From: a virus
Taxonomy: Duplodnaviria > Heunggongvirae > Uroviricota > Caudoviricetes
Virus record (IMG/VR): IMGVR_UViG_2565956629_000003
DNA length: 14,030 nt
Reading direction: 5' to 3' (one strand)
A program made the translations under genes and the position numbers. Position 1 is the stretch's first letter; every line of letters begins with the position of its first letter. Below are positions 3,625-13,500 of this stretch, piece by piece. The notes beneath the pieces are model-generated. The model did no database searches, was not told where the DNA came from, and was given only the letters and a program-made list of their open reading frames with translations.

Positions 3625-3833
3625 ACCAGAATGATATCGAAGCCATGATTCAGCGTTATACGGAAGCTGAAATGGCGGTGCTGGACGGAAAATCCGTCAC
3701 CTTTAATGGTCAGCAGATGACCATGGAAAACTTATCTGAGATCCGGCAGGGACGGCAGGAGTGGGAGCGCCGCCTTGCGGCTCTGATTACACGACGACGG
3801 GGGCATCCCGGGTACCGGCTGGCGAGGTTCTGA
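3621..3833 (+). CDS. head-tail connector / head completion protein (lambda gpW-like)
   Basis: ATG at 3621 lies 6 nt after GGAGG (3610-3614) and overlaps the terminase stop (ATGA). 70 aa ending ...RRRGHPGYRLARF, similar in size and C-terminal RRRG motif to lambda gpW. Located between terminase and portal as in lambda. Confidence 0.7.
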   Translation: MNQNDIEAMIQRYTEAEMAVLDGKSVTFNGQQMTMENLSEIRQGRQEWERRLAALITRRRGHPGYRLARF

Positions 3834-5341
3834 TGGCAATTCTTGATGATGTGATTGGCGTTTTTTCACCAGGATGGAAAGCGGCAAGGCTGCGTTCCCG
3901 TGCGGTGATCCAGGCTTATGAGGCCGTAAAAACGACGCGGACACACAAAGCCCGGCGGGAAAACCGAACTGCCGACCAGTTAAGCCAGTACGGGGCCGTG
4001 TCGTTACGTGAGCAGGCCCGTTACCTTGATAACAACCACGATCTGGTTATTGGTGTATTTGACAAGCTGGAAGAACGGGTGGTGGGGAAAAACGGGATTA
4101 TTGTCGAGCCACATCCGGTATTACGCAATGGGGCCATTGCCCGTGACCTGGCTGCGGAGATTCGCACCCGATGGAGTGAATGGTCTGTCAGCCCGGAAGT
4201 CACCGGGCAGTTTACCCGTCCGATGCTGGAACGTCTGATGCTGCGTACCTGGCTGCGCGATGGTGAGGTGTTTGCCCAGATGGTTTCCGGGCGCATAAAC
4301 AGCCTGACGCCTTCTGCCGGTGTTCATTTCTGGCTGGAGGCGCTCGAGCCGGACTTTATTCCCATGACCAGTGATGAGAGCAACAGGCTGAATCAGGGCG
4401 TGTTTGTTGATGACTGGGGGCGTCCCGAAAAATATCTGGTGTATAAAAGCCGTCCCGTATCCGGACGGCAGATGGAAACCAAAGAAGTGGATGCAGAGCG
4501 AATGCTGCATCTTAAATTTGTTCGCCGTCTGCACCAGATGCGCGGGACGTCTTTGTTGTCCGGTGTGCTGATCCGCCTCAGTGCCCTGAAAGAGTATGAA
4601 GATTCTGAGCTGACTGCAGCAAGGATCGCCGCTGCTCTGGGGATGTACATCCGCAAAGGCGACGGGCAGAGCTATGAACCGGATGGTAATGGCAGCAAGG
4701 ATAAGGAACGCGAGCTTACCATTCAGCCAGGCATTATTTACGACGATCTGAAACCCGGCGAAGAAATCGGAATGGTGAAGTCGGATCGTCCCAATCCTAA
4801 CCTTGAAACTTTTCGTAATGGTCAGTTGCGTGCCGTGGCGGCGGGCAGTCGTCTGAGTTTTTCCAGTACGGCACGCAACTATAACGGTACTTACAGCGCC
4901 CAGCGTCAGGAACTGGTTGAGTCTACTGATGGCTACCTGATCCTGCAGGACTGGTTTATTGGTGCCGTCACCCGCCCGATGTATCGTGCCTGGCTGAAAC
5001 AGGCTGTGGCATCCGGTGTTATCAGGCTACCCCGCGATCTTGACCGTTCTTCACTGTATACCGCGGTGTATTCCGGACCGGTGATGCCGTGGATTGACCC
5101 TGTTAAGGAGGCTGAGGCCTGGAAAATCCAGATTCGTGGTGGAGCGGCGACAGAATCAGACTGGGTACGTGCAGGTGGTCGTAATCCGGATGATGTCAAA
5201 CGTCGGCGCAAGGCCGAAATTGATGAAAACCGCAAGCTGGATCTGGTATTTGATACCGATCCAGCCAGTGATAAAGGAGGCAGCAGTGCCGCAACGAAAC
5301 GACAGGAGCCGCAGCATACCGACGACCAGTCCGAAGAATAA
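3833..5341 (+). CDS. portal protein (lambda gpB family)
   Basis: ATG at 3833 overlaps the upstream stop (TGATG); the longer ORF-track start at 3761 would overlap the upstream gene by 72 nt. About 502 aa, acidic C-terminus. Position between gpW-like and the protease/capsid gene. Confidence 0.88.
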   Translation: MAILDDVIGVFSPGWKAARLRSRAVIQAYEAVKTTRTHKARRENRTADQLSQYGAVSLREQARYLDNNHDLVIGVFDKLEERVVGKNGIIVEPHPVLRNGAIARDLAAEIRTRWSEWSVSPEVTGQFTRPMLERLMLRTWLRDGEVFAQMVSGRINSLTPSAGVHFWLEALEPDFIPMTSDESNRLNQGVFVDDWGRPEKYLVYKSRPVSGRQMETKEVDAERMLHLKFVRRLHQMRGTSLLSGVLIRLSALKEYEDSELTAARIAAALGMYIRKGDGQSYEPDGNGSKDKERELTIQPGIIYDDLKPGEEIGMVKSDRPNPNLETFRNGQLRAVAAGSRLSFSSTARNYNGTYSAQRQELVESTDGYLILQDWFIGAVTRPMYRAWLKQAVASGVIRLPRDLDRSSLYTAVYSGPVMPWIDPVKEAEAWKIQIRGGAATESDWVRAGGRNPDDVKRRRKAEIDENRKLDLVFDTDPASDKGGSSAATKRQEPQHTDDQSEE

Positions 5342-5354
5342 TTCCTGGTTCAGG

Positions 5355-7313
5355 ATGCAGGCTGGTCACCAGAGTGACGCGGATATTTATATTTATGACG
5401 AGATTGGTTTCTGGGGTGTTACAGCGAAGCAGTTTATCAGTGATCTGAATGCACTGGGCGATATCACCCACATTAATCTCCATATTAATTCACCGGGTGG
5501 CGATGTCTTTGAAGGCATCGCCATTTTTAATGCGCTGAAAACACATGGTGCGTCCATTACCGTTTATGTCGACGGTGTGGCGGCGTCAATGGCGTCGGTC
5601 ATTGCGATGGTGGGAAACCCGGTCATTATGCCGGAAAACACCTTCATGATGATTCATAAACCATTTGGCTTTACGGGCGGTGATGCGGAGGACATGCGCA
5701 CCTATGCCGACCTGCTCGATAAGGTTGAGGCGGTTCTGTTACCCGCTTATGCACAGAAAACCGGGAAAACCACCGATGAAATTGCTGCCATGCTGGCGGA
5801 TGAGACCTGGATGTCCGGTGCCGAATGTCTGGCACATGGATTTGCTGATCAGGTAACGCCAGCCGTTAAGGCAATGGCATGTATTCAGTCAAAACGTACA
5901 GAGGAATTTAAAAAGATGCCGGAATCCATTCGAAACATGATTACTCCGCCACGCAACAGTGCTCCACGCGTACAGGATGATGAACCTGCAGCCTCCCGGA
6001 CGCCAGTGCAGGCAGCAGCACCCGTGGTGGATGAAAACAGTATCCGTGCGCAGGTACTGGCAGAGCAAAAAGCGCGTGTAAACGGTATTAATGATCTGTT
6101 TGCCATGTTTGGCGGGCGTTATCAGACGCTGCAGGCTCAGTGTCTTGCCGATCCTGAATGTTCGCTGGAGCGGGCCCGCGAAAAGCTGTTGAACGAGATG
6201 GGGCGCGAGTCCACGCCATCCAATAAAAATACCCCGGCTCATATTTATGCCGGTAACGGTAATTTTGTGGGGGACGGGATCCGCCAGGCGCTGATGGCGC
6301 GTGCCGGATTTGAAAAAACCGAACGTGATAATGTCTACAACGGGATGACCCTGCGTGAATATGCCCGTATGTCACTGACTGAACGGGGTATTGGGGTTTC
6401 CAGTTATAACCCGATGCAGATGGTCGGTGCGGCGTTCACACACAGTACGTCTGACTTCGGTAATATTCTGCTGGATGTTGCGAACAAAGCCATTCTGCAG
6501 GGCTGGGAAGATGCCCCTGAAACCTATGAACAGTGGACGCGGAAAGGTCAGTTGTCTGATTTTAAAATTGCCCATCGTGTGGGTATGGGGGGCTTCAGTG
6601 CTCTGCGTCAGGTGCGTGAAGGGGCGGAATATAAATACGTCACCACCGGAGATAAACAGGCCACTATTGCACTGGCGACCTATGGCGAGCTGTTCAGTAT
6701 CACCCGTCAGGCCATTATCAATGATGATCTGAATATGCTGACCGATGTCCCGATGAAACTGGGCCGTGCGGCGAAATCCACTATTGCCGATCTGGTTTAT
6801 GCCATTCTGACGTCTAACCCGAAAATCTCCACAGATAATGTAAGTCTGTTCGATAAAGCGAAACATGCAAACGTACTGGAGAGCGCTGCAATGGACGTGG
6901 CATCGCTGGATAAAGCCCGCCAGTTGATGCGCGTTCAGAAAGAGGGGGAGCGTCATCTGAATATTCGTCCTGCGTTCGTACTGGTACCGACGGCGATGGA
7001 GTCTGTTGCTAACCAGGTCATTCGCTCCTCAAGTGTCAAGGGGGCTGACATTAACGCCGGTATTATTAACCCGGTGAAAGATTTTGCGACCGTTATTGCA
7101 GAGCCTCGTCTTGATGATAACAGCCAGACCACCTTCTACCTGGCTGCGTCAAAAGGCTCCGATACGATTGAAGTGGCTTATCTCAACGGTGTGGATACGC
7201 CATATATTGATCAGATGGAGGGCTTCAGTGTGGATGGCGTGACAACGAAAGTGCGTATTGACGCCGGTGTCGCGCCAGTTGATCACCGCGGTCTGGTGAA
7301 ATGTACGGCGTAA
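5355..7313 (+). CDS. prohead protease (ClpP/S49 type) - scaffold-like linker - major capsid protein fusion
   Basis: Continuous ORF. N-terminal domain carries ClpP-type motifs GVAASMAS (Ser codon 5586-5588) and MMIHKP (His codon 5655-5657). Middle is an Ala/Pro/Gln-rich linker. C-terminal ~400 aa is capsid-like. Start chosen at the first ATG after the portal stop (5355); the ORF-track start at 5094 would overlap the portal by about 250 nt. Confidence 0.85.
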   Translation: MQAGHQSDADIYIYDEIGFWGVTAKQFISDLNALGDITHINLHINSPGGDVFEGIAIFNALKTHGASITVYVDGVAASMASVIAMVGNPVIMPENTFMMIHKPFGFTGGDAEDMRTYADLLDKVEAVLLPAYAQKTGKTTDEIAAMLADETWMSGAECLAHGFADQVTPAVKAMACIQSKRTEEFKKMPESIRNMITPPRNSAPRVQDDEPAASRTPVQAAAPVVDENSIRAQVLAEQKARVNGINDLFAMFGGRYQTLQAQCLADPECSLERAREKLLNEMGRESTPSNKNTPAHIYAGNGNFVGDGIRQALMARAGFEKTERDNVYNGMTLREYARMSLTERGIGVSSYNPMQMVGAAFTHSTSDFGNILLDVANKAILQGWEDAPETYEQWTRKGQLSDFKIAHRVGMGGFSALRQVREGAEYKYVTTGDKQATIALATYGELFSITRQAIINDDLNMLTDVPMKLGRAAKSTIADLVYAILTSNPKISTDNVSLFDKAKHANVLESAAMDVASLDKARQLMRVQKEGERHLNIRPAFVLVPTAMESVANQVIRSSSVKGADINAGIINPVKDFATVIAEPRLDDNSQTTFYLAASKGSDTIEVAYLNGVDTPYIDQMEGFSVDGVTTKVRIDAGVAPVDHRGLVKCTA

Positions 7314-8979: not shown

Positions 8980-8989
8980 GGAGGTGGCA

Positions 8990-9733
8990 ATGACCACACC
9001 AAATCCACTGGCAAAGACGAAAGGTGCGGGGACGACGTTCTGGATGTATACCGGCAACGGCGACGCATTTGCGAACCCTTTGTCGGACACTGACTGGCTG
9101 CGTCTTGCGATGGTGAAGGATCTGCAACCTGGCGAAATGACCGCTGATGCAGAAGATGATACTTATCTCGATGATGAAGATGCAGACTGGAAAACGACAA
9201 CCCAGGGGCAGAAATCAGTCGGTGATACTTCGGCGACGCTGGCCTGGCGTCCGGGTGACAGCGGGCAGAAAAAACTGGTTCAGTTGTTCGACTCCGGTGA
9301 AGTCTGCGCGTTTCGTATCAAATATCCCAACGGTACTGTTGATGTTTTCCGTGGCTGGCTGAGTTCACTGGGTAAAACCATTGCCTCAAAAGACGTGATG
9401 ACCCGCACTGTGAAAATCAGCGGTGTGGGGCGTCCGTATCTGGCAGAGGAAGGCACTGAAACAGTGAGCGTTACCGGGCTGACGGTGGCACCGGCATCTG
9501 CCAGTGTAAAAGTGGGAGCAACCACCACGCTGACCTTTACAGTAAAACCTGACGGAGCCAGTGACAAAGCGATCAGTGTGCATTCGTCAGATCCACAGAC
9601 TGCCACGGTGACCCTGAACGGGCTTGTAGCCACGGTGAAAGGCGTGAAGCAGGGCAGTGTCAGCATTGTGGGCATGACCGCTGACGGGAATTTTGTGGCT
9701 GTGGCTGCGGTGACTGTCAGCGCCGCAGGTTAA
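8990..9733 (+). CDS. major tail protein (lambda gpV-like) with C-terminal Ig-like domain
   Basis: ATG at 8990 with AAGGAGG at 8978-8984. Strong similarity to lambda V as recalled (PNP..KGAGTT.W.Y.G.GD..ANPLSD.DW.RLA.VKDL.PGE.TA...DD.YLDDEDADW). C-terminal Thr/Val-rich Ig-like segment. Confidence 0.95.
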   Translation: MTTPNPLAKTKGAGTTFWMYTGNGDAFANPLSDTDWLRLAMVKDLQPGEMTADAEDDTYLDDEDADWKTTTQGQKSVGDTSATLAWRPGDSGQKKLVQLFDSGEVCAFRIKYPNGTVDVFRGWLSSLGKTIASKDVMTRTVKISGVGRPYLAEEGTETVSVTGLTVAPASASVKVGATTTLTFTVKPDGASDKAISVHSSDPQTATVTLNGLVATVKGVKQGSVSIVGMTADGNFVAVAAVTVSAAG

Positions 9734-9753
9734 CAGGACGATACTCATCATTT

Positions 9754-9777
9754 GCCCCGGTTATCCGGGGCTTTTTT
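9754..9777 (+). terminator. rho-independent terminator downstream of the major tail gene
   Basis: gccccgg-ttat-ccggggc (7-bp GC-rich stem) followed by TTTTTT (9772-9777), 21 nt after the V stop. Confidence 0.6.
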
Positions 9778-9790
9778 GCAGGTGGAGAAC

Positions 9791-10180
9791 ATGATGTTTC
9801 TGAAACAGGGCACGTTTAATTATGAAAAACAGTCCGTGGTGCTCAGTGAGCTGTCCGGGCTGCAGAGAATTGAATATCTGGCGTTTGTTCAGCAGCGAAC
9901 GGCAAAGTTTGATGCCGGTGAGGGAGAACTGCCGGAGGCTGAACGACAGATTGCTTTTCTGCGGATGGGGATGGATATCAATGCCTGGCTGGTTTCCCGC
10001 TCACTGTGGAATGCGGATCAGTCTAAGGATGTAGAGACGCTTTGCGCATCCGTTATTACAACATGGTCGTATGATGCCCTGGGTGCGGGGGCGGAGATGG
10101 TTCTGTCGCTGAGCGGTATGGGGGCCATTGATAATGCCGGGGATGATGAGCATGAGGCGCTGACGCCGGAAAAGTCCTGA
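9791..10180 (+). CDS. tail assembly chaperone (lambda gpG-like)
   Basis: ATG at 9791; the ORF-track start at 9752 lies inside the terminator hairpin. Product MMFLKQGTFNYEKQSVVLSELSGLQRIEYLAFVQQR... matches lambda G (MFLKTESFEHNGVTVTLSELSALQRIEHLA...). Confidence 0.9.
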   Translation: MMFLKQGTFNYEKQSVVLSELSGLQRIEYLAFVQQRTAKFDAGEGELPEAERQIAFLRMGMDINAWLVSRSLWNADQSKDVETLCASVITTWSYDALGAGAEMVLSLSGMGAIDNAGDDEHEALTPEKS

Positions 10181-10518
10181 CGCGGGAAATGCAGTTTGTC
10201 ATGCGGCTTGCCCGGGAGTTCCGGCGGGCAGACTGGCGGCGGATGCTGTCGGAAATGTCGGCCACTGAGCTTGGTGAGTGGGGCGATTATTTCCGGATGC
10301 AGAGCTTCAGTGATGTGTGGATGGATGCGCAGTTTGCCTCGCTGAAGGCATTGATCGTGAGAATGGTGTCCGGCAGCAGTGATGCTGCGGTGGCTGATTT
10401 CAGCCTTTTACCGGAAGAGAACGGGATACCGGAGCGAACGGACGAAGAACTGATGCATCTTGGGGAAGGTATTTCCGGAGGTGTGCGTTATGGACCAGAT
10501 AGCCAACCTGGTCATTGA
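9791..10518 (+). CDS. tail assembly chaperone G-T fusion produced by -1 frameshift near 10168-10174
   Basis: The T-frame translation (...GKVLTREMQFVMRLAREFRRADWRRMLSEMSATE...GISGGVRYGPD...) matches the lambda gpT part of gpGT (VLTREMQFVMRLAREF...GIAGGVRYG) as recalled. T has no convincing independent start context. Confidence 0.7.
10168..10174 (+). promoter_or_regulatory. putative -1 programmed ribosomal frameshift site (GGAAAAG) for G-T fusion
   Basis: Located 4 nt before the G stop codon. The -1 frame is open from 10156 and continues into the T reading frame to 10518. Lambda uses GGGAAAG at the equivalent position. Confidence 0.55.
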
Positions 10519-13500
10519 TTTGGGGATTGATGCGGCAGAGTTTAAAAATGAAATCCCCCGTATCAAAAACCTTCTGAATGGTGCAGCCAGCGATGCAGAA
10601 CGGTCTTCTGCCCGTATGCAGCGTTTTATGGAGCGTCAGACTCAGGCCGCCCGGCAGACAACGCAGGCGGCGTCTTCGGCTGCAACAGCCGCATCCGTCC
10701 ATGCGCAGACGGTGGAGAAGAACGCACAGGCTCATGAACGCATGGCCCGCGAGGTGGAGAAAACCCGCCAGCGTATGGAGGCGCTGAGCCAGAAAATGCG
10801 CGAGGAACAGGCGCAGGCCATGGCTCTGGCGGAGGCTCAGGATAAAGCGGCTGCTGCGTTTTATCGTCAGATTGACAGTGTGAAACAGGCCAGTGCGGGT
10901 CTGCAGGAATTACAGCGTATTCAGCAGCAGATCCGACAGGCCAGAAACAGTGGCGGGATTGGTCAGCAGGATTATCTGGCGCTGATTTCTGAGGTTACGG
11001 CGAAAACCCGTGTTCTTACACAGGCTGAGGAAGAGGCTACCCGACAGAAAGTGGCGTTTATCCGTCAGCTTAAAGAGCAGGCAACCCGCCAGAATCTTTC
11101 TTCTTCTGAGTTGCTTCGTGCTAAGGCTGCCCAGCTGGGGGTAAGCAGTGCTGCAGAAGTGTATATCCGCAAAATGGAGCAGGCAGGAAAAGCCACGCAT
11201 TCGCTGGGGCTGAAAAGTGCAGCGGCCCGTCAGGAGATAGGCGTTCTGATAGGTGAACTGGCCCGCGGAAATTTAGGTGCGCTGAGGGGATCCGGAATAA
11301 CGCTGGCTAACCGTGCCGGGTGGATAGACACATTGATGTCACCGAAAGGCATGATGCTTGGCGGGGTTATTGGCGGTATTGCCGCGGCTGTCTATGGTCT
11401 GGGTAAAGCCTGGTATGACGGTCAGAAGGAGGGGGAAGAATTTAACCGCCAGCTGTCGCTGACGGGGCATTATGCCGGAGTCACTGCCGGGCAGCTGTGG
11501 ACGCTCAGTCGTGCTATTTCCGGGAATGGTATCACGCAACATGCTGCAGCCGGTGCGCTGGCTCAGGTGGTGGGGAGTGGTGCATTTCGTGGAAACGATA
11601 TCGGTATGGTGGCGAGAGCTGCCGCACAGATGGAGCGATCGGTTGGCCAGTCGGTCAGCGATACCATAAATCAGTTTAAGCGGCTGAAGGATGATCCTGT
11701 AAATGCCGCGAAGTCTCTGGACAATGAGCTGCATTTTCTTACTGCCACTCAGCTTGAGCAGATACGCGTCCTTGGAGAGCAGGGGCGGTCCAGTGATGCG
11801 GCACGGATAGCCATGTCTGCACTGGCAGAGGAAACCGGTCGGCGTACTGCGGATATTGATAATAACCTCAATGCGCTGGGCAGTACGCTGCAAACTTTGT
11901 CTGACTGGTGGAAGCAGTTCTGGGATGCGGCCATGAATATTGGTCGTGAAGATTCGCTGGATGCGCAGATTGCCACTTTGCAGGAGAAAGTGTCGCGGGC
12001 GAAAAGACTCCCCTGGACGGCATCATCTTCTCAGGTTGAATACGATCAGCAGCGTCTTAACGATCTTCAGGAGAAAAAACGCCAGAAGGATTTGCAGGAT
12101 GCAAAAGAGCAGGCAGAGCGGAATTATCAGGAGCAACAGAAACGCCGTAATGCTGAAAATGCTGCACTGAACCGGATGAATGAAACGGAAGCTGCACGAC
12201 ATCAGCGTGAAATTGCGCGTATTAATGCCATGCAGTACGCCGATCAGGCTGTCAGGGATGCGGCGATACAACGTGAAAATGAACGTTACGAGAAAGCCCT
12301 GGCATCCGGTAAGAAAAAAACACGCGAAACCCGTAATGATGAGGCCACCCGGTTATTGCTGCAGTACAGTCAGCAACAGGCACAGGTGGAAGGACAGATT
12401 GCTGCTGCAAGACAGTCAGCAGGCATTGCCACTGACAGGATGACAGAAGCGCATAAACAGCTTCTGGCTCTGCAGCAGCGCATCAGCGATCTGGACGGGA
12501 AAAAACTGACGGCAGATGAAAAGAGTGTGCTGGCCCGTAAAGATGAACTGATTCAGGCACTGACGCTGCTGGATGTAAAACAGCAGGAGCTTCAGAAACA
12601 GACGGCACTCAACGATCTGAAGAAAAAAACAATTCAGCTGACCAGTCAACTGGCTGAAGAAGAGCGCGCTCAGCGTCAGCAACATGACCTGGATATCGCC
12701 ACGGTTGGTATGGGTGATCAGCAGCGGCAGCGATATCAGGTACAACTGAGTCTTCGCCAGAAATACCAGCAACAGCTGGAGCAGTTGAGGCGGGATAGTG
12801 AGCAGAAAGGGACATATAACACGGATGACTACAGAAAGGCCGAGCAGGCGCTGACGGAGAGTCTGAACCGACAACTGAATGAGAATCGCCGTTACTGGCA
12901 ACAGCTTGAAATTGCTCAGGGTAATTGGAAAAACGGAGTCCTGCGTGCACTCCAGAATGTCACTGAGAATGCGGATAACACAGCCGGGACAGTGGAACAG
13001 TTGTTCACGTCTGCGTTCAGTAGCATGAGTGACTGGCTGGCGACATTCTGTACTACAGGCAAACTCAATTTCAAATCTTTTACTTCTTCTGTGCTGTCAG
13101 ATATGTCCAGAATCATGGCTCAGATAGCTTTAATGAAAGCGGTAAAAGGCATTGCTTCCGCGCTGCCTTTTGATTTTGTAGCCAATGCTGATGGCGGTGT
13201 TTATCAGTCGGCTGATTTGAGTCGCTACAGTGGCACGGTGGTTAACCGTCCGACGTTTTTTGCTTTTGCAAAAGGCGCGGGTGTGATGGGGGAAGCTGGA
13301 CCTGAAGCCATTCTGCCACTGCGTCGTGGTGCTGACGGTAAGCTGGGGGTTGTGGCGGATATTGGTGGTTCAGGTATGGCGATGTTTGCCCCGCAGTACA
13401 ACATCGAGATCAATAACGATGGCACGAACGGGCAGATAGGTCCTGCTGCCCTGAAGGTGGTTTATGACCTTGGGAAAAAAGCGGCAGCGGACTTTATGCA

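What the first reader, a model, noticed from the sequence alone, without database searches (positions are those of the whole stretch)
10156..10191. G-T programmed -1 frameshift with a GGAAAAG slip site instead of lambda's GGGAAAG
Conservation of the gpG/gpGT recoding arrangement is clear: the -1 frame is open exactly from the end of G into T. The heptamer differs by one base from lambda's, so P-site re-pairing would be GAA to GGA (weaker), which may change frameshift efficiency and the G:GT ratio.
Basis: partly seen in the sequence, partly recalled or inferred. Interest (0 to 1): 0.4.

Follow-up and report, generated by a model that had tools for sequence, protein, structure and literature searches.

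The report
Ordinary G-T tail chaperone frameshift site
This is the well-known programmed -1 ribosomal frameshift that fuses the lambda-type tail assembly chaperones G and T; its GGAAAAG slip site is the commonest version in enterobacterial relatives and is already annotated in phage N15, so it is real but ordinary.

Summary
G (9791-10180, PF06894) ends at TGA 10178. The -1 frame is open from 10156 to 10515 and encodes a Phage_tail_T domain (PF06223). The only slippery motif in the 22-nt overlap is G GAA AAG at 10168-10174, in the right phase.

The window is 98-100% identical to known E. coli lambdoid phages (mEp460, cdtI, Ayreon, PhiR47_1). The same G-T block occurs in 1846 of 5426 complete E. 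coli genomes.

I compared 35 non-redundant G/T loci from Enterobacterales. The slip site sits at the same position in all of them. It reads GGAAAAG in 28, GGGAAAG (lambda's) in 3, and other variants in 4. The heptamer is the only fully invariant block. Its first G is a synonymous third-codon position kept across six different preceding codons. The overlap windows of all 35 loci intersect in 10 nt that contain just the heptamer. The ATG at 10189 is kept in only 2 of 35.

The N15 GenBank record already labels GGAAAAG as "slippery sequence for -1 translational frameshift".

I found no conserved downstream RNA structure. An upstream Shine-Dalgarno-like GAGG is only marginally enriched.

Verdict: genuine G-GT recoding, already known, low interest. 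The actual frameshift efficiency remains unmeasured.

The parts
9791..10180 (+). Gene G, the tail assembly chaperone (129 aa from ATG 9791, or 128 aa from ATG 9794). The 0-frame stop is TGA 10178-10180.
   Evidence: ORF and translation. Pfam PF06894 Phage_TAC_2, E = 1.8e-39. SD GGUGGAG upstream, -7.0 kcal/mol. PGAP names it 'phage tail assembly chaperone G'.
10156..10177 (+). Overlap in which both the 0 frame (G) and the -1 frame (T) are open. A -1 shift that yields GT must happen here.
   Evidence: The last -1-frame stop is TGA 10153-10155 and the G stop is at 10178. Across 35 homologous loci the overlaps intersect at -3..+6 relative to the first base of the heptamer.
10168..10174 (+). Slip heptamer G GAA AAG. 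The 0-frame codons are GAA (Glu, P site) and AAG (Lys, A site). After the -1 shift they read GGA and AAA.
   Evidence: Sequence. Invariant in 28 of 35 non-redundant relatives and at the same position as lambda's G GGA AAG, 42 nt before the ARE.. motif. The identical heptamer is annotated as the slippery sequence in N15.
10174..10518 (+). The T segment, read in the -1 frame after the shift (VLTREMQF... to stop TGA 10516-10518). It forms the C-terminal half of the predicted 242-aa, 27.1-kDa GT fusion.
   Evidence: Pfam PF06223 Phage_tail_T, E = 3.9e-15. Fusion sequence and mass. Residues K128, E133 and F136 of the fusion are invariant in the alignment, and K128 and E133 lie upstream of the ATG at 10189.
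10189..10191 (+). ATG used by public annotation as the start of a separate 109-aa 'T' protein. Probably not a conserved initiation site.
   Evidence: The codon at this position is ATG in only 2 of 35 lineages and CTG in 19. The first ATG of the -1 ORF lies 75 nt after the heptamer in 18 of 35. The SD match is weak and abuts the ATG, -4.3 kcal/mol.
10154..10157 (+). SD-like GAGG, 10 nt upstream of the heptamer. It is a candidate 5' stimulator of the dnaX type, but this is unproven.
   Evidence: Duplex with the anti-SD, -5.6 kcal/mol. In the family, 13 of 35 loci score <= -5 kcal/mol at spacing 7-12 against 7.8 expected, P about 0.03, without correction for phylogeny. A similar level occurs at spacing 24-29. 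Inconclusive.

Best explanation
A programmed -1 ribosomal frameshift of the lambda G/GT type. Most ribosomes translate G to its stop at 10178 and make the 14-kDa chaperone G.

A minority slip back one base when tRNA-Glu (on GAA) and tRNA-Lys (on AAG) occupy the heptamer G GAA AAG at 10168-10174. tRNA-Lys re-pairs perfectly with AAA. tRNA-Glu re-pairs with GGA using two Watson-Crick pairs and a central G.U pair. Translation then continues in the -1 frame from GTC (10174) to the stop at 10516. The product is a 242-aa G-T fusion with the junction ...TPEK|VLTRE....

By homology with lambda, the G part binds the tape-measure protein H and the T part recruits the tail tube protein V. The low GT:G ratio is set by the slip frequency.

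What is shown here: the frame layout, the domain identities, and the conservation of the position and sequence of the heptamer. What is inferred: that slippage happens, its two-tRNA mechanism, its frequency, and the function of GT.
For: - Frames and heptamer.
- Domains: G is PF06894, T is PF06223, and they are flanked by V (PF16461) and H (tape-measure domains).
- Family survey: among 35 non-redundant loci (<90% identity), the slip site is always 42 nt before the conserved ARE(F/M)(G/R)R(P/A)DW motif. It reads GGAAAAG in 28, GGGAAAG in 3, GGCAAAA in 2, AAAAAAG in 1 and GGGAAAA in 1.
- Invariance: the heptamer is the only fully invariant block between -30 and +45.
- Heptamer base 1: it is the third base of CCG, GCG, CTG, TTG, GTG or ACG, and it is always G. 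This fits selection for the P-site tRNA pairing with G1, that is, tandem slippage.
- Overlap windows: their intersection across the family is 10 nt containing the heptamer.
- No conserved start codon for T.
- Sequence conservation in the -1 frame begins right at the slip site.
- Existing annotation: N15 labels the identical heptamer as the slippery sequence and gene 15 as 'downstream half of translational frameshift product'. The Gifsy-1, Gifsy-2, HK225 and mEp237 records name the GT product.
- Lambda G:GT ratio and roles: PMC5009743.
Against: - No experiment exists on this phage or, as far as I could find, on any GGAAAAG G-T site.
- In a purified E. coli translation system, AUG GAA AAG gave mainly 0-frame product with wild-type EF-G and was described as unfavourable for slippage (PMC6924986).
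- A_AAG tetramers without stimulators are barely above background in vivo (PMC4066793).
- No conserved downstream structure is present: RNAalifold energy is 0 over +1..+60, single-sequence z is -1.09 for the window, and the mean z over 35 loci is 0.09.
- The upstream SD-like element is only marginally supported.
- The fused protein sequence is absent from a collection of 15 billion proteins, so nobody has deposited it as a product.
Confidence: 0.85

Rival explanations
1. The site and product are the same, but only the A-site tRNA-Lys slips (a Z_ZZN tetramer A_AAG mechanism, as in some IS3-family elements). The P-site tRNA-Glu plays no specific role, so the 'heptamer' is really a tetramer.
For: GAA to GGA is not a canonical XXY to XXX re-pairing. 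[quoted passage not shown] A_AAG is the most shift-prone tetramer in E. coli (PMC4066793). The family variants GGCAAAA (L024, L026) have a P-site codon, GCA, that cannot re-pair.
Against: Heptamer bases 1-3 (G, G, A) are invariant in 28 lineages. Base 1 is a synonymous third position following six different codons, and the Glu codon is always GAA, never GAG. A tetramer mechanism would not need that. Tetramers without a strong 3' stimulator are near background, and no 3' structure is conserved here.
Confidence: 0.15
2. T is made as a separate 109-aa protein from ATG 10189, either by direct initiation or by termination-reinitiation after the G stop 8 nt upstream. This is how public annotation shows it.
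For: In this clade an ATG lies 8 nt after the G stop. PGAP and most phage records annotate a stand-alone T CDS. The 109-aa sequence is seen on at least 1000 contigs.
Against: The ATG is present in only 2 of 35 lineages. In 18 of 35 the first ATG lies 75 nt past the heptamer, inside the conserved domain. Invariant residues (K128, E133) lie upstream of this ATG. The SD match is weak (-4.3 kcal/mol) and directly abuts the ATG. The -1 frame is kept open back through the heptamer in every lineage. In lambda the functional species is the GT fusion, whose G part tethers it to H (PMC5009743).
Confidence: 0.06
3. The frame change is made at the RNA level, by transcriptional slippage of RNA polymerase on the A run. 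This would add or remove an A in a fraction of transcripts.
For: The site contains a homopolymeric run (AAAA). Transcriptional slippage is a known alternative route to frame-shifted products in bacteria (reviewed in PMC5009743).
Against: The run is only 4 A long. From my own knowledge of the field, known slippage-prone runs are about 7-9 or more. Conservation extends to G1, G2 and the terminal G, and to the reading phase, none of which matters for polymerase slippage. Lambda's site has only 3 A.
Confidence: 0.01

Closest known systems
Bacteriophage lambda G / GT frameshift (G GGA AAG). Levin, Hendrix & Casjens 1993; Xu, Hendrix & Duda 2004, 2013, 2014. The references are cited via PMC5009743; the primary papers are not held in the library.
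   Same: Same gene order (V-G-T-H). Same Pfam families for G and T. A -1 frame for T. The slip site is at the homologous position, 42 nt before the LARE.GRPDW motif. The A-site codon AAG and the Lys-Val junction are the same.
   Different: The P-site codon is GAA (Glu), not GGA (Gly), so the re-pairing mismatch is a central G.U rather than a third-position G.U. The G stop comes 1 codon after the slip codons (base +10 from heptamer base 1) rather than 5 codons after (+22). The proteins are only about 34-35% identical. T lacks lambda's C-terminal repeat extension.
Phage N15 genes 14/15 (GenBank AF064539 / NC_001901)
   Same: The heptamer GGAAAAG is identical, in the same phase and at the same position. 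The record explicitly annotates it as 'slippery sequence for -1 translational frameshift', and gene 15 as 'downstream half of translational frameshift product'.
   Different: The preceding codon is GCG (Ala) rather than CCG (Pro). The G stop is at +22 rather than +10. The G/T proteins are divergent (the N15-like HK225 is 39% identical to the window's GT in alignment A1). There is no SD-like GAGG at the 10-nt spacing.
Salmonella prophages Gifsy-1, Gifsy-2 and Fels-1 G/T
   Same: These are the closest relatives outside the mEp460/cdtI clade (68-70% nucleotide identity). They share the core CCGGAAAAG, followed by TCCTGA (Gifsy-1, Gifsy-2) or CCCTGA (Fels-1), with the stop at the same spacing. The Gifsy records describe T as part of a G frameshift hybrid.
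   Different: The acidic C-terminal tail of G is unrelated in sequence. The Met at 10189 is Leu (CTG/CTT) in them.
E. coli dnaX -1 frameshift (A AAA AAG with an upstream SD-like element and a downstream hairpin)
   Same: -1 slippage exploits the weak AAG:tRNA-Lys(mnm5s2U) pairing. In this window a GAGG sits 10 nt upstream, the spacing at which the dnaX SD acts (my own knowledge: Larsen et al. 1994).
   Different: No conserved 3' hairpin. The SD-like element is not conserved across the family. The expected efficiency is a few percent or less, rather than about 50-80%.
Non-canonical tail-chaperone slip motifs catalogued by PRFect (PMC10885494)
   Same: That paper lists motif classes beyond XXXYYYZ among annotated tail-chaperone frameshifts. 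It discusses tRNA-Glu (anticodon written CUU) re-binding GGA through a G:U pair, which is the same re-pairing proposed here.
   Different: Their example (GGGGGAA) has GAA in the A site, and their data are mainly actinophages. I did not see the supplementary definition of their 'twofour' class, so I cannot say whether GGAAAAG is formally included.

Membership tests
Lambda-type G/GT tail assembly chaperone with programmed -1 frameshift | Two consecutive small ORFs between the major tail (tube) gene and the tape-measure gene. | tested here: met
   V 8984-9733 (PF16461), G 9791-10180, T frame 10156-10518, H from 10490 (PF06791, PF09718).
Lambda-type G/GT tail assembly chaperone with programmed -1 frameshift | The upstream ORF is a gpG homologue. 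| tested here: met
   PF06894 Phage_TAC_2, E = 1.8e-39, covering 1-123 of 126 profile positions.
Lambda-type G/GT tail assembly chaperone with programmed -1 frameshift | The downstream ORF is a gpT homologue, lies in the -1 frame relative to G, overlaps its end, and has no conserved start of its own. | tested here: met
   PF06223, E = 3.9e-15. The -1 frame is open from 10156. ATG 10189 is conserved in 2 of 35 lineages.
Lambda-type G/GT tail assembly chaperone with programmed -1 frameshift | A slippery sequence in the overlap, in phase, and conserved at the homologous position in relatives. | tested here: met
   G GAA AAG at 10168-10174. Same position in all 35 lineages and identical in 28.
Lambda-type G/GT tail assembly chaperone with programmed -1 frameshift | A GT fusion protein is actually produced at a low fixed ratio to G and is required for tail assembly. 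| not testable with these tools
   This needs a western blot, mass spectrometry, a reporter assay or genetics. The fused sequence is not deposited anywhere in the protein collection.
Canonical X_XXY_YYZ tandem-slippage heptamers | Bases 1-3 are identical and bases 4-6 are identical, so that both tRNAs keep their first two pairs after the shift. | tested here: not met
   Bases 1-3 are G, G, A, so P-site GAA->GGA changes the middle pair to G.U. This does not affect membership of the G/GT family, because N15's annotated site is the same.
dnaX-type stimulated -1 frameshift signals | A stable RNA hairpin or pseudoknot 5-8 nt downstream of the slip site. | tested here: not met
   The window's downstream fold has z = -1.09 and starts immediately after the heptamer. 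RNAalifold energy is 0 over +1..+60 in 35 loci, with a mean single-sequence z of 0.09. No Rfam match.
dnaX-type stimulated -1 frameshift signals | An SD-like sequence about 10 nt upstream of the slip site. | tested here: inconclusive
   GAGG at 10154-10157 with a 10-nt spacer, -5.6 kcal/mol. The family enrichment is marginal (13 against 7.8 expected, P about 0.03, not corrected for phylogeny), and spacing 24-29 scores about the same.

The most novel reading that the evidence does not exclude
G GAA AAG has been used in ribosome biophysics as a poorly slippery comparison sequence. Yet it is the predominant natural slip site of lambda-type G/T chaperone genes in Enterobacterales (28 of 35 lineages here). 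Its first G is held invariant at a synonymous position, and the Glu codon is always GAA. That would mean a P-site re-pairing with a central G.U pair is positively selected and sufficient, without a conserved 3' structure, to give the low GT:G ratio. Individual clades, including this one, might tune it with an SD-like GAGG 10 nt upstream. If nobody has stated this, it is a small, testable refinement of bacterial slip-site rules.
Probability: 0.2. Interest if true: 0.35.

Novelty: already known. Interest (0 to 1): 0.12.

Why it matters
It matters mainly for annotation. In 1846 of 5426 complete E. coli genomes, and in all the close phage records I opened, T is shown as an independent 109-aa protein, or as a shorter one in Ayreon. 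The biologically relevant product, by homology, is a 242-aa GT fusion that is absent from protein databases.

For frameshifting specialists there is a minor point. A heptamer with a middle-position G.U in the P site is the commonest G-T slip site in enterobacterial lambdoid phages. It offers a natural series (GGAAAAG, GGGAAAG, AAAAAAG, GGCAAAA-TAG) for relating slip-site strength to the G:GT ratio needed for tail assembly.

None of this changes the understanding of the system.

Tried and rejected
- **Downstream stimulatory RNA structure.** The single-sequence folds of 10175-10264 (z = -1.09) and 10140-10230 (z = 0.04) were not better than shuffles. RNAalifold on 35 homologues gave no structure within 60 nt. 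Rfam gave nothing at E <= 1. Rejected.
- **Upstream SD-like stimulator.** There is a positional peak at spacing 7-11. It is only marginal against codon shuffles, and spacing 24-29 matches it. Left as inconclusive.
- **Independent initiation of T.** Rejected as the conserved route.
- **Literature search for GGAAAAG / 'G GAA AAG'.** The held library has nothing on phage tails. It has only the EF-G study that used the sequence as a weak site.
- **Xu et al. 2004.** Not held, so I could not check whether its table lists this heptamer.
- **Exact look-up of the fused GT protein.** Not in the collection.
- **Chance occurrence of the heptamer alone.** Not significant: 5 observed against 2 expected. The argument therefore rests on position, phase and conservation.

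Full report
**What is in the sequence**

Reading 9600-10700 and translating all three forward frames shows the following.
- An ORF runs from ATG 9791 (a second ATG follows at 9794) to TGA 10178-10180. It ends ...GAG GCG CTG ACG CCG GAA AAG TCC TGA.
- In the -1 frame the last upstream stop is TGA 10153-10155. That frame then stays open to 10515 (stop 10516-10518).
- The two frames are therefore both open only in 10156-10177, a stretch of 22 nt.
- Within this stretch the only homopolymer-rich motif is GGAAAAG at 10168-10174, in the phase G GAA AAG.
- The +1 frame is closed at 10266 and encodes nothing recognisable.

The predicted junction is ...HEALTPEK|VLTREMQF....

**What the genes are**

Pfam scans identify the module:
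- The upstream ORF is lambda gpG (PF06894, E = 1.8e-39).
- The -1 ORF is gpT (PF06223, E = 3.9e-15).
- They sit between a lambda-type tail tube protein V (PF16461, with a Big_2 domain) and a tape-measure protein H.
- Upstream lies a lambda-type terminase, a portal, a ClpP-protease/capsid ORF, a cement protein, Z and U.

The 901 bases around the site are 98-100% identical to 17 phage records, including PhiR47_1, HannyBb, Tritos, mEp460, cdtI and Ayreon. The G-T block is found in 1846 of 5426 complete E. coli genomes.

None of the records I opened joins G and T into one CDS. They give a separate T of 109 aa, or in Ayreon a shorter one starting at a later ATG. The fused 242-aa or 241-aa sequence is absent from a 15-billion-protein collection, while G and T alone are abundant.

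**Is the heptamer meaningful?**

The heptamer alone is not rare: 5 copies in the window against 2.0 expected. The evidence comes from comparison.

I collected G-T loci from the phage collection, from one-genome-per-species bacterial contigs and from IMG/VR. I anchored each on the conserved T motif ARE(F/M)(G/R)R(P/A)DW.
- All 80 IMG/VR relatives (91-100% protein identity) carry GGAAAAG at the same place.
- After reduction to 35 representatives below 90% identity, the slip site is always 42 nt upstream of the motif. It reads GGAAAAG in 28, GGGAAAG in 3 (lambda and two others), GGCAAAA in 2, AAAAAAG in 1 and GGGAAAA in 1.
- Among the 28, the heptamer is the only fully invariant block between -30 and +45.
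- The codon that supplies its first base is CCG, GCG, CTG, TTG, GTG or ACG. That is five different amino acids, and the third base is always G.
- The -1 frame opens between 3 and 66 nt before the heptamer. The G stop begins between 7 and 22 nt after its first base. The region open in both frames in every lineage is just -3..+6, which is the heptamer itself.
- Conservation of the -1-frame protein begins at the slip Lys. K128, E133 and F136 of the fusion are invariant.
- The 0-frame tail after the heptamer varies in length and sequence.

**Does T have its own start?**

The ATG at 10189 is present in only 2 of 35 lineages, and CTG is the commonest codon there. In 18 of 35 the first ATG of the -1 ORF lies 75 nt past the heptamer, inside the conserved domain.

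The best SD match upstream of 10189 is weak (-4.3 kcal/mol) and directly abuts the ATG. For comparison, the values are -7.0 for G and -13.3 for H.

Termination-reinitiation after the G stop, 8 nt upstream, cannot be excluded for this clade. It cannot be the conserved way of making T.

**Mechanism**

The best-supported model is tandem -1 slippage.
- tRNA-Lys moves from AAG to AAA, which is a better pair for its modified U34.
- tRNA-Glu moves from GAA to GGA. It keeps the outer two pairs, and the middle pair becomes G.U.

The invariance of heptamer bases 1-3, including a synonymous position and the exclusive use of GAA rather than GAG, argues that the P-site tRNA matters. This favours the heptamer model over a pure A_AAG tetramer model. 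That step is inference from conservation.

The published experiments I found point to a weak site.
- In a purified system, AUG GAA AAG gave mainly 0-frame product with wild-type EF-G and was called less slippery than G GGA AAG (PMC6924986).
- A_AAG tetramers without stimulators are near background in vivo (PMC4066793).
- Thermodynamic modelling of dnaX variants shows that a single A.U to G.U change in the P site can be largely offset by the favourable AAG to AAA change in the A site (PMC6787027). That paper measured first-position mismatches, not second-position ones.
- Lambda needs only about 1 GT per 30 G (PMC5009743), so a weak site is adequate.

**Stimulators**

I found no conserved 3' structure. 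The window's downstream fold has z = -1.09. RNAalifold energy is 0 over +1..+60 in 35 loci, and the mean single-sequence z is 0.09. Rfam gave no match.

A GAGG at 10154-10157 lies 10 nt upstream, the spacing at which the dnaX SD-like element acts (my own knowledge of Larsen et al. 1994). Across the family, SD-like matches peak at spacing 7-11. The excess over codon-shuffled controls is marginal (13 of 35 against 7.8 expected, P about 0.03, not corrected for shared ancestry), and spacing 24-29 scores as high. I leave this as an untested possibility.

**Comparison with what is known**

This is the lambda G/GT recoding system, which is widely conserved in long-tailed phages (PMC5009743).

The specific heptamer is not new.
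- The N15 GenBank record carries a misc_feature 'slippery sequence for -1 translational frameshift' at 10027-10033. I read that sequence as GGAAAAG. Gene 15 is described there as 'downstream half of translational frameshift product'.
- The Gifsy-1 and Gifsy-2 records describe T as part of a G frameshift hybrid.
- The GenBank records of HK225 and mEp237 name a 'tail assembly protein GT'.
- PRFect discusses tRNA-Glu re-binding GGA through G:U pairing in other tail-chaperone slip sites.

I could not read Xu et al. 2004.

**Verdict**

The feature is the ordinary, already annotated majority form of a textbook recoding signal, in a phage module that is nearly identical to many sequenced ones.

Two things remain open. 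One is the actual efficiency of G GAA AAG in vivo. The other is whether the upstream GAGG contributes. Both could be settled with a simple reporter series.

Noticed in passing
window 9754-9777 (+): A GC-rich hairpin, GCCCCGG-TTAT-CCGGGGC, followed by TTTTTT lies between the V stop (9731-9733) and the G start (9791). The same element is annotated as a rho-independent terminator in mEp460 and Ayreon, and a putative one sits at the same place in N15. It may lower transcription of G, T and H relative to the abundant tube protein V.
   Followed up: partly
window 10477-10492 (+): The conserved C-terminal T motif G-G-V-R-Y-G is encoded by GGA GGT GTG CGT TAT GGA. This stretch contains the strong SD (GGAGGTG, -13.3 kcal/mol) and the ATG (10490) of the tape-measure gene H. 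The protein motif and the H translation start are therefore dual-coded. H overlaps the end of T by 29 nt.
   Followed up: no
window 5094-7313 (+): A single 739-aa ORF combines a ClpP-type protease domain (residues 95-255) with a phage capsid domain (441-736). As listed from its first TTG, it overlaps the end of the portal ORF (3761-5341). This is a protease-capsid fusion head gene, unlike lambda's separate C, Nu3 and E genes. The true start was not determined.
   Followed up: partly
loci L010, L040, L070 (GGAAAAG TAG); L024, L026 (GGCAAAA TAG); L054 (GGGAAAA TAG): In 6 of 35 family lineages the 0-frame stop follows the slip codon directly, and it is TAG every time. In the GGCAAAA cases the P-site codon GCA cannot re-pair. 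This suggests a different sub-mechanism there: tRNA-Lys slipping in the P site while the stop codon waits in the A site.
   Followed up: no
loci L056-L062, L064-L068 and L075-L078 (genome contigs): The lambda G-T junction (identical overlap sequence) turns up on short, low-coverage contigs in assemblies labelled Neobacillus, Oceanobacillus, Kitasatospora, Pseudomonas, Shewanella, Chromatium, Leeuwenhoekiella, Enterococcus and others. This is almost certainly lambda control-DNA contamination of those assemblies.
   Followed up: no
public records for window 10189-10518: Annotation is inconsistent. T is given as 109 aa from ATG 10189 in mEp460, PhiR47_1 and PGAP genomes. In Ayreon it is an 87-aa protein from a later ATG. 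No close relative I opened has a joined G-T CDS. The GT fusion sequence is missing from a 15-billion-protein collection.
   Followed up: yes
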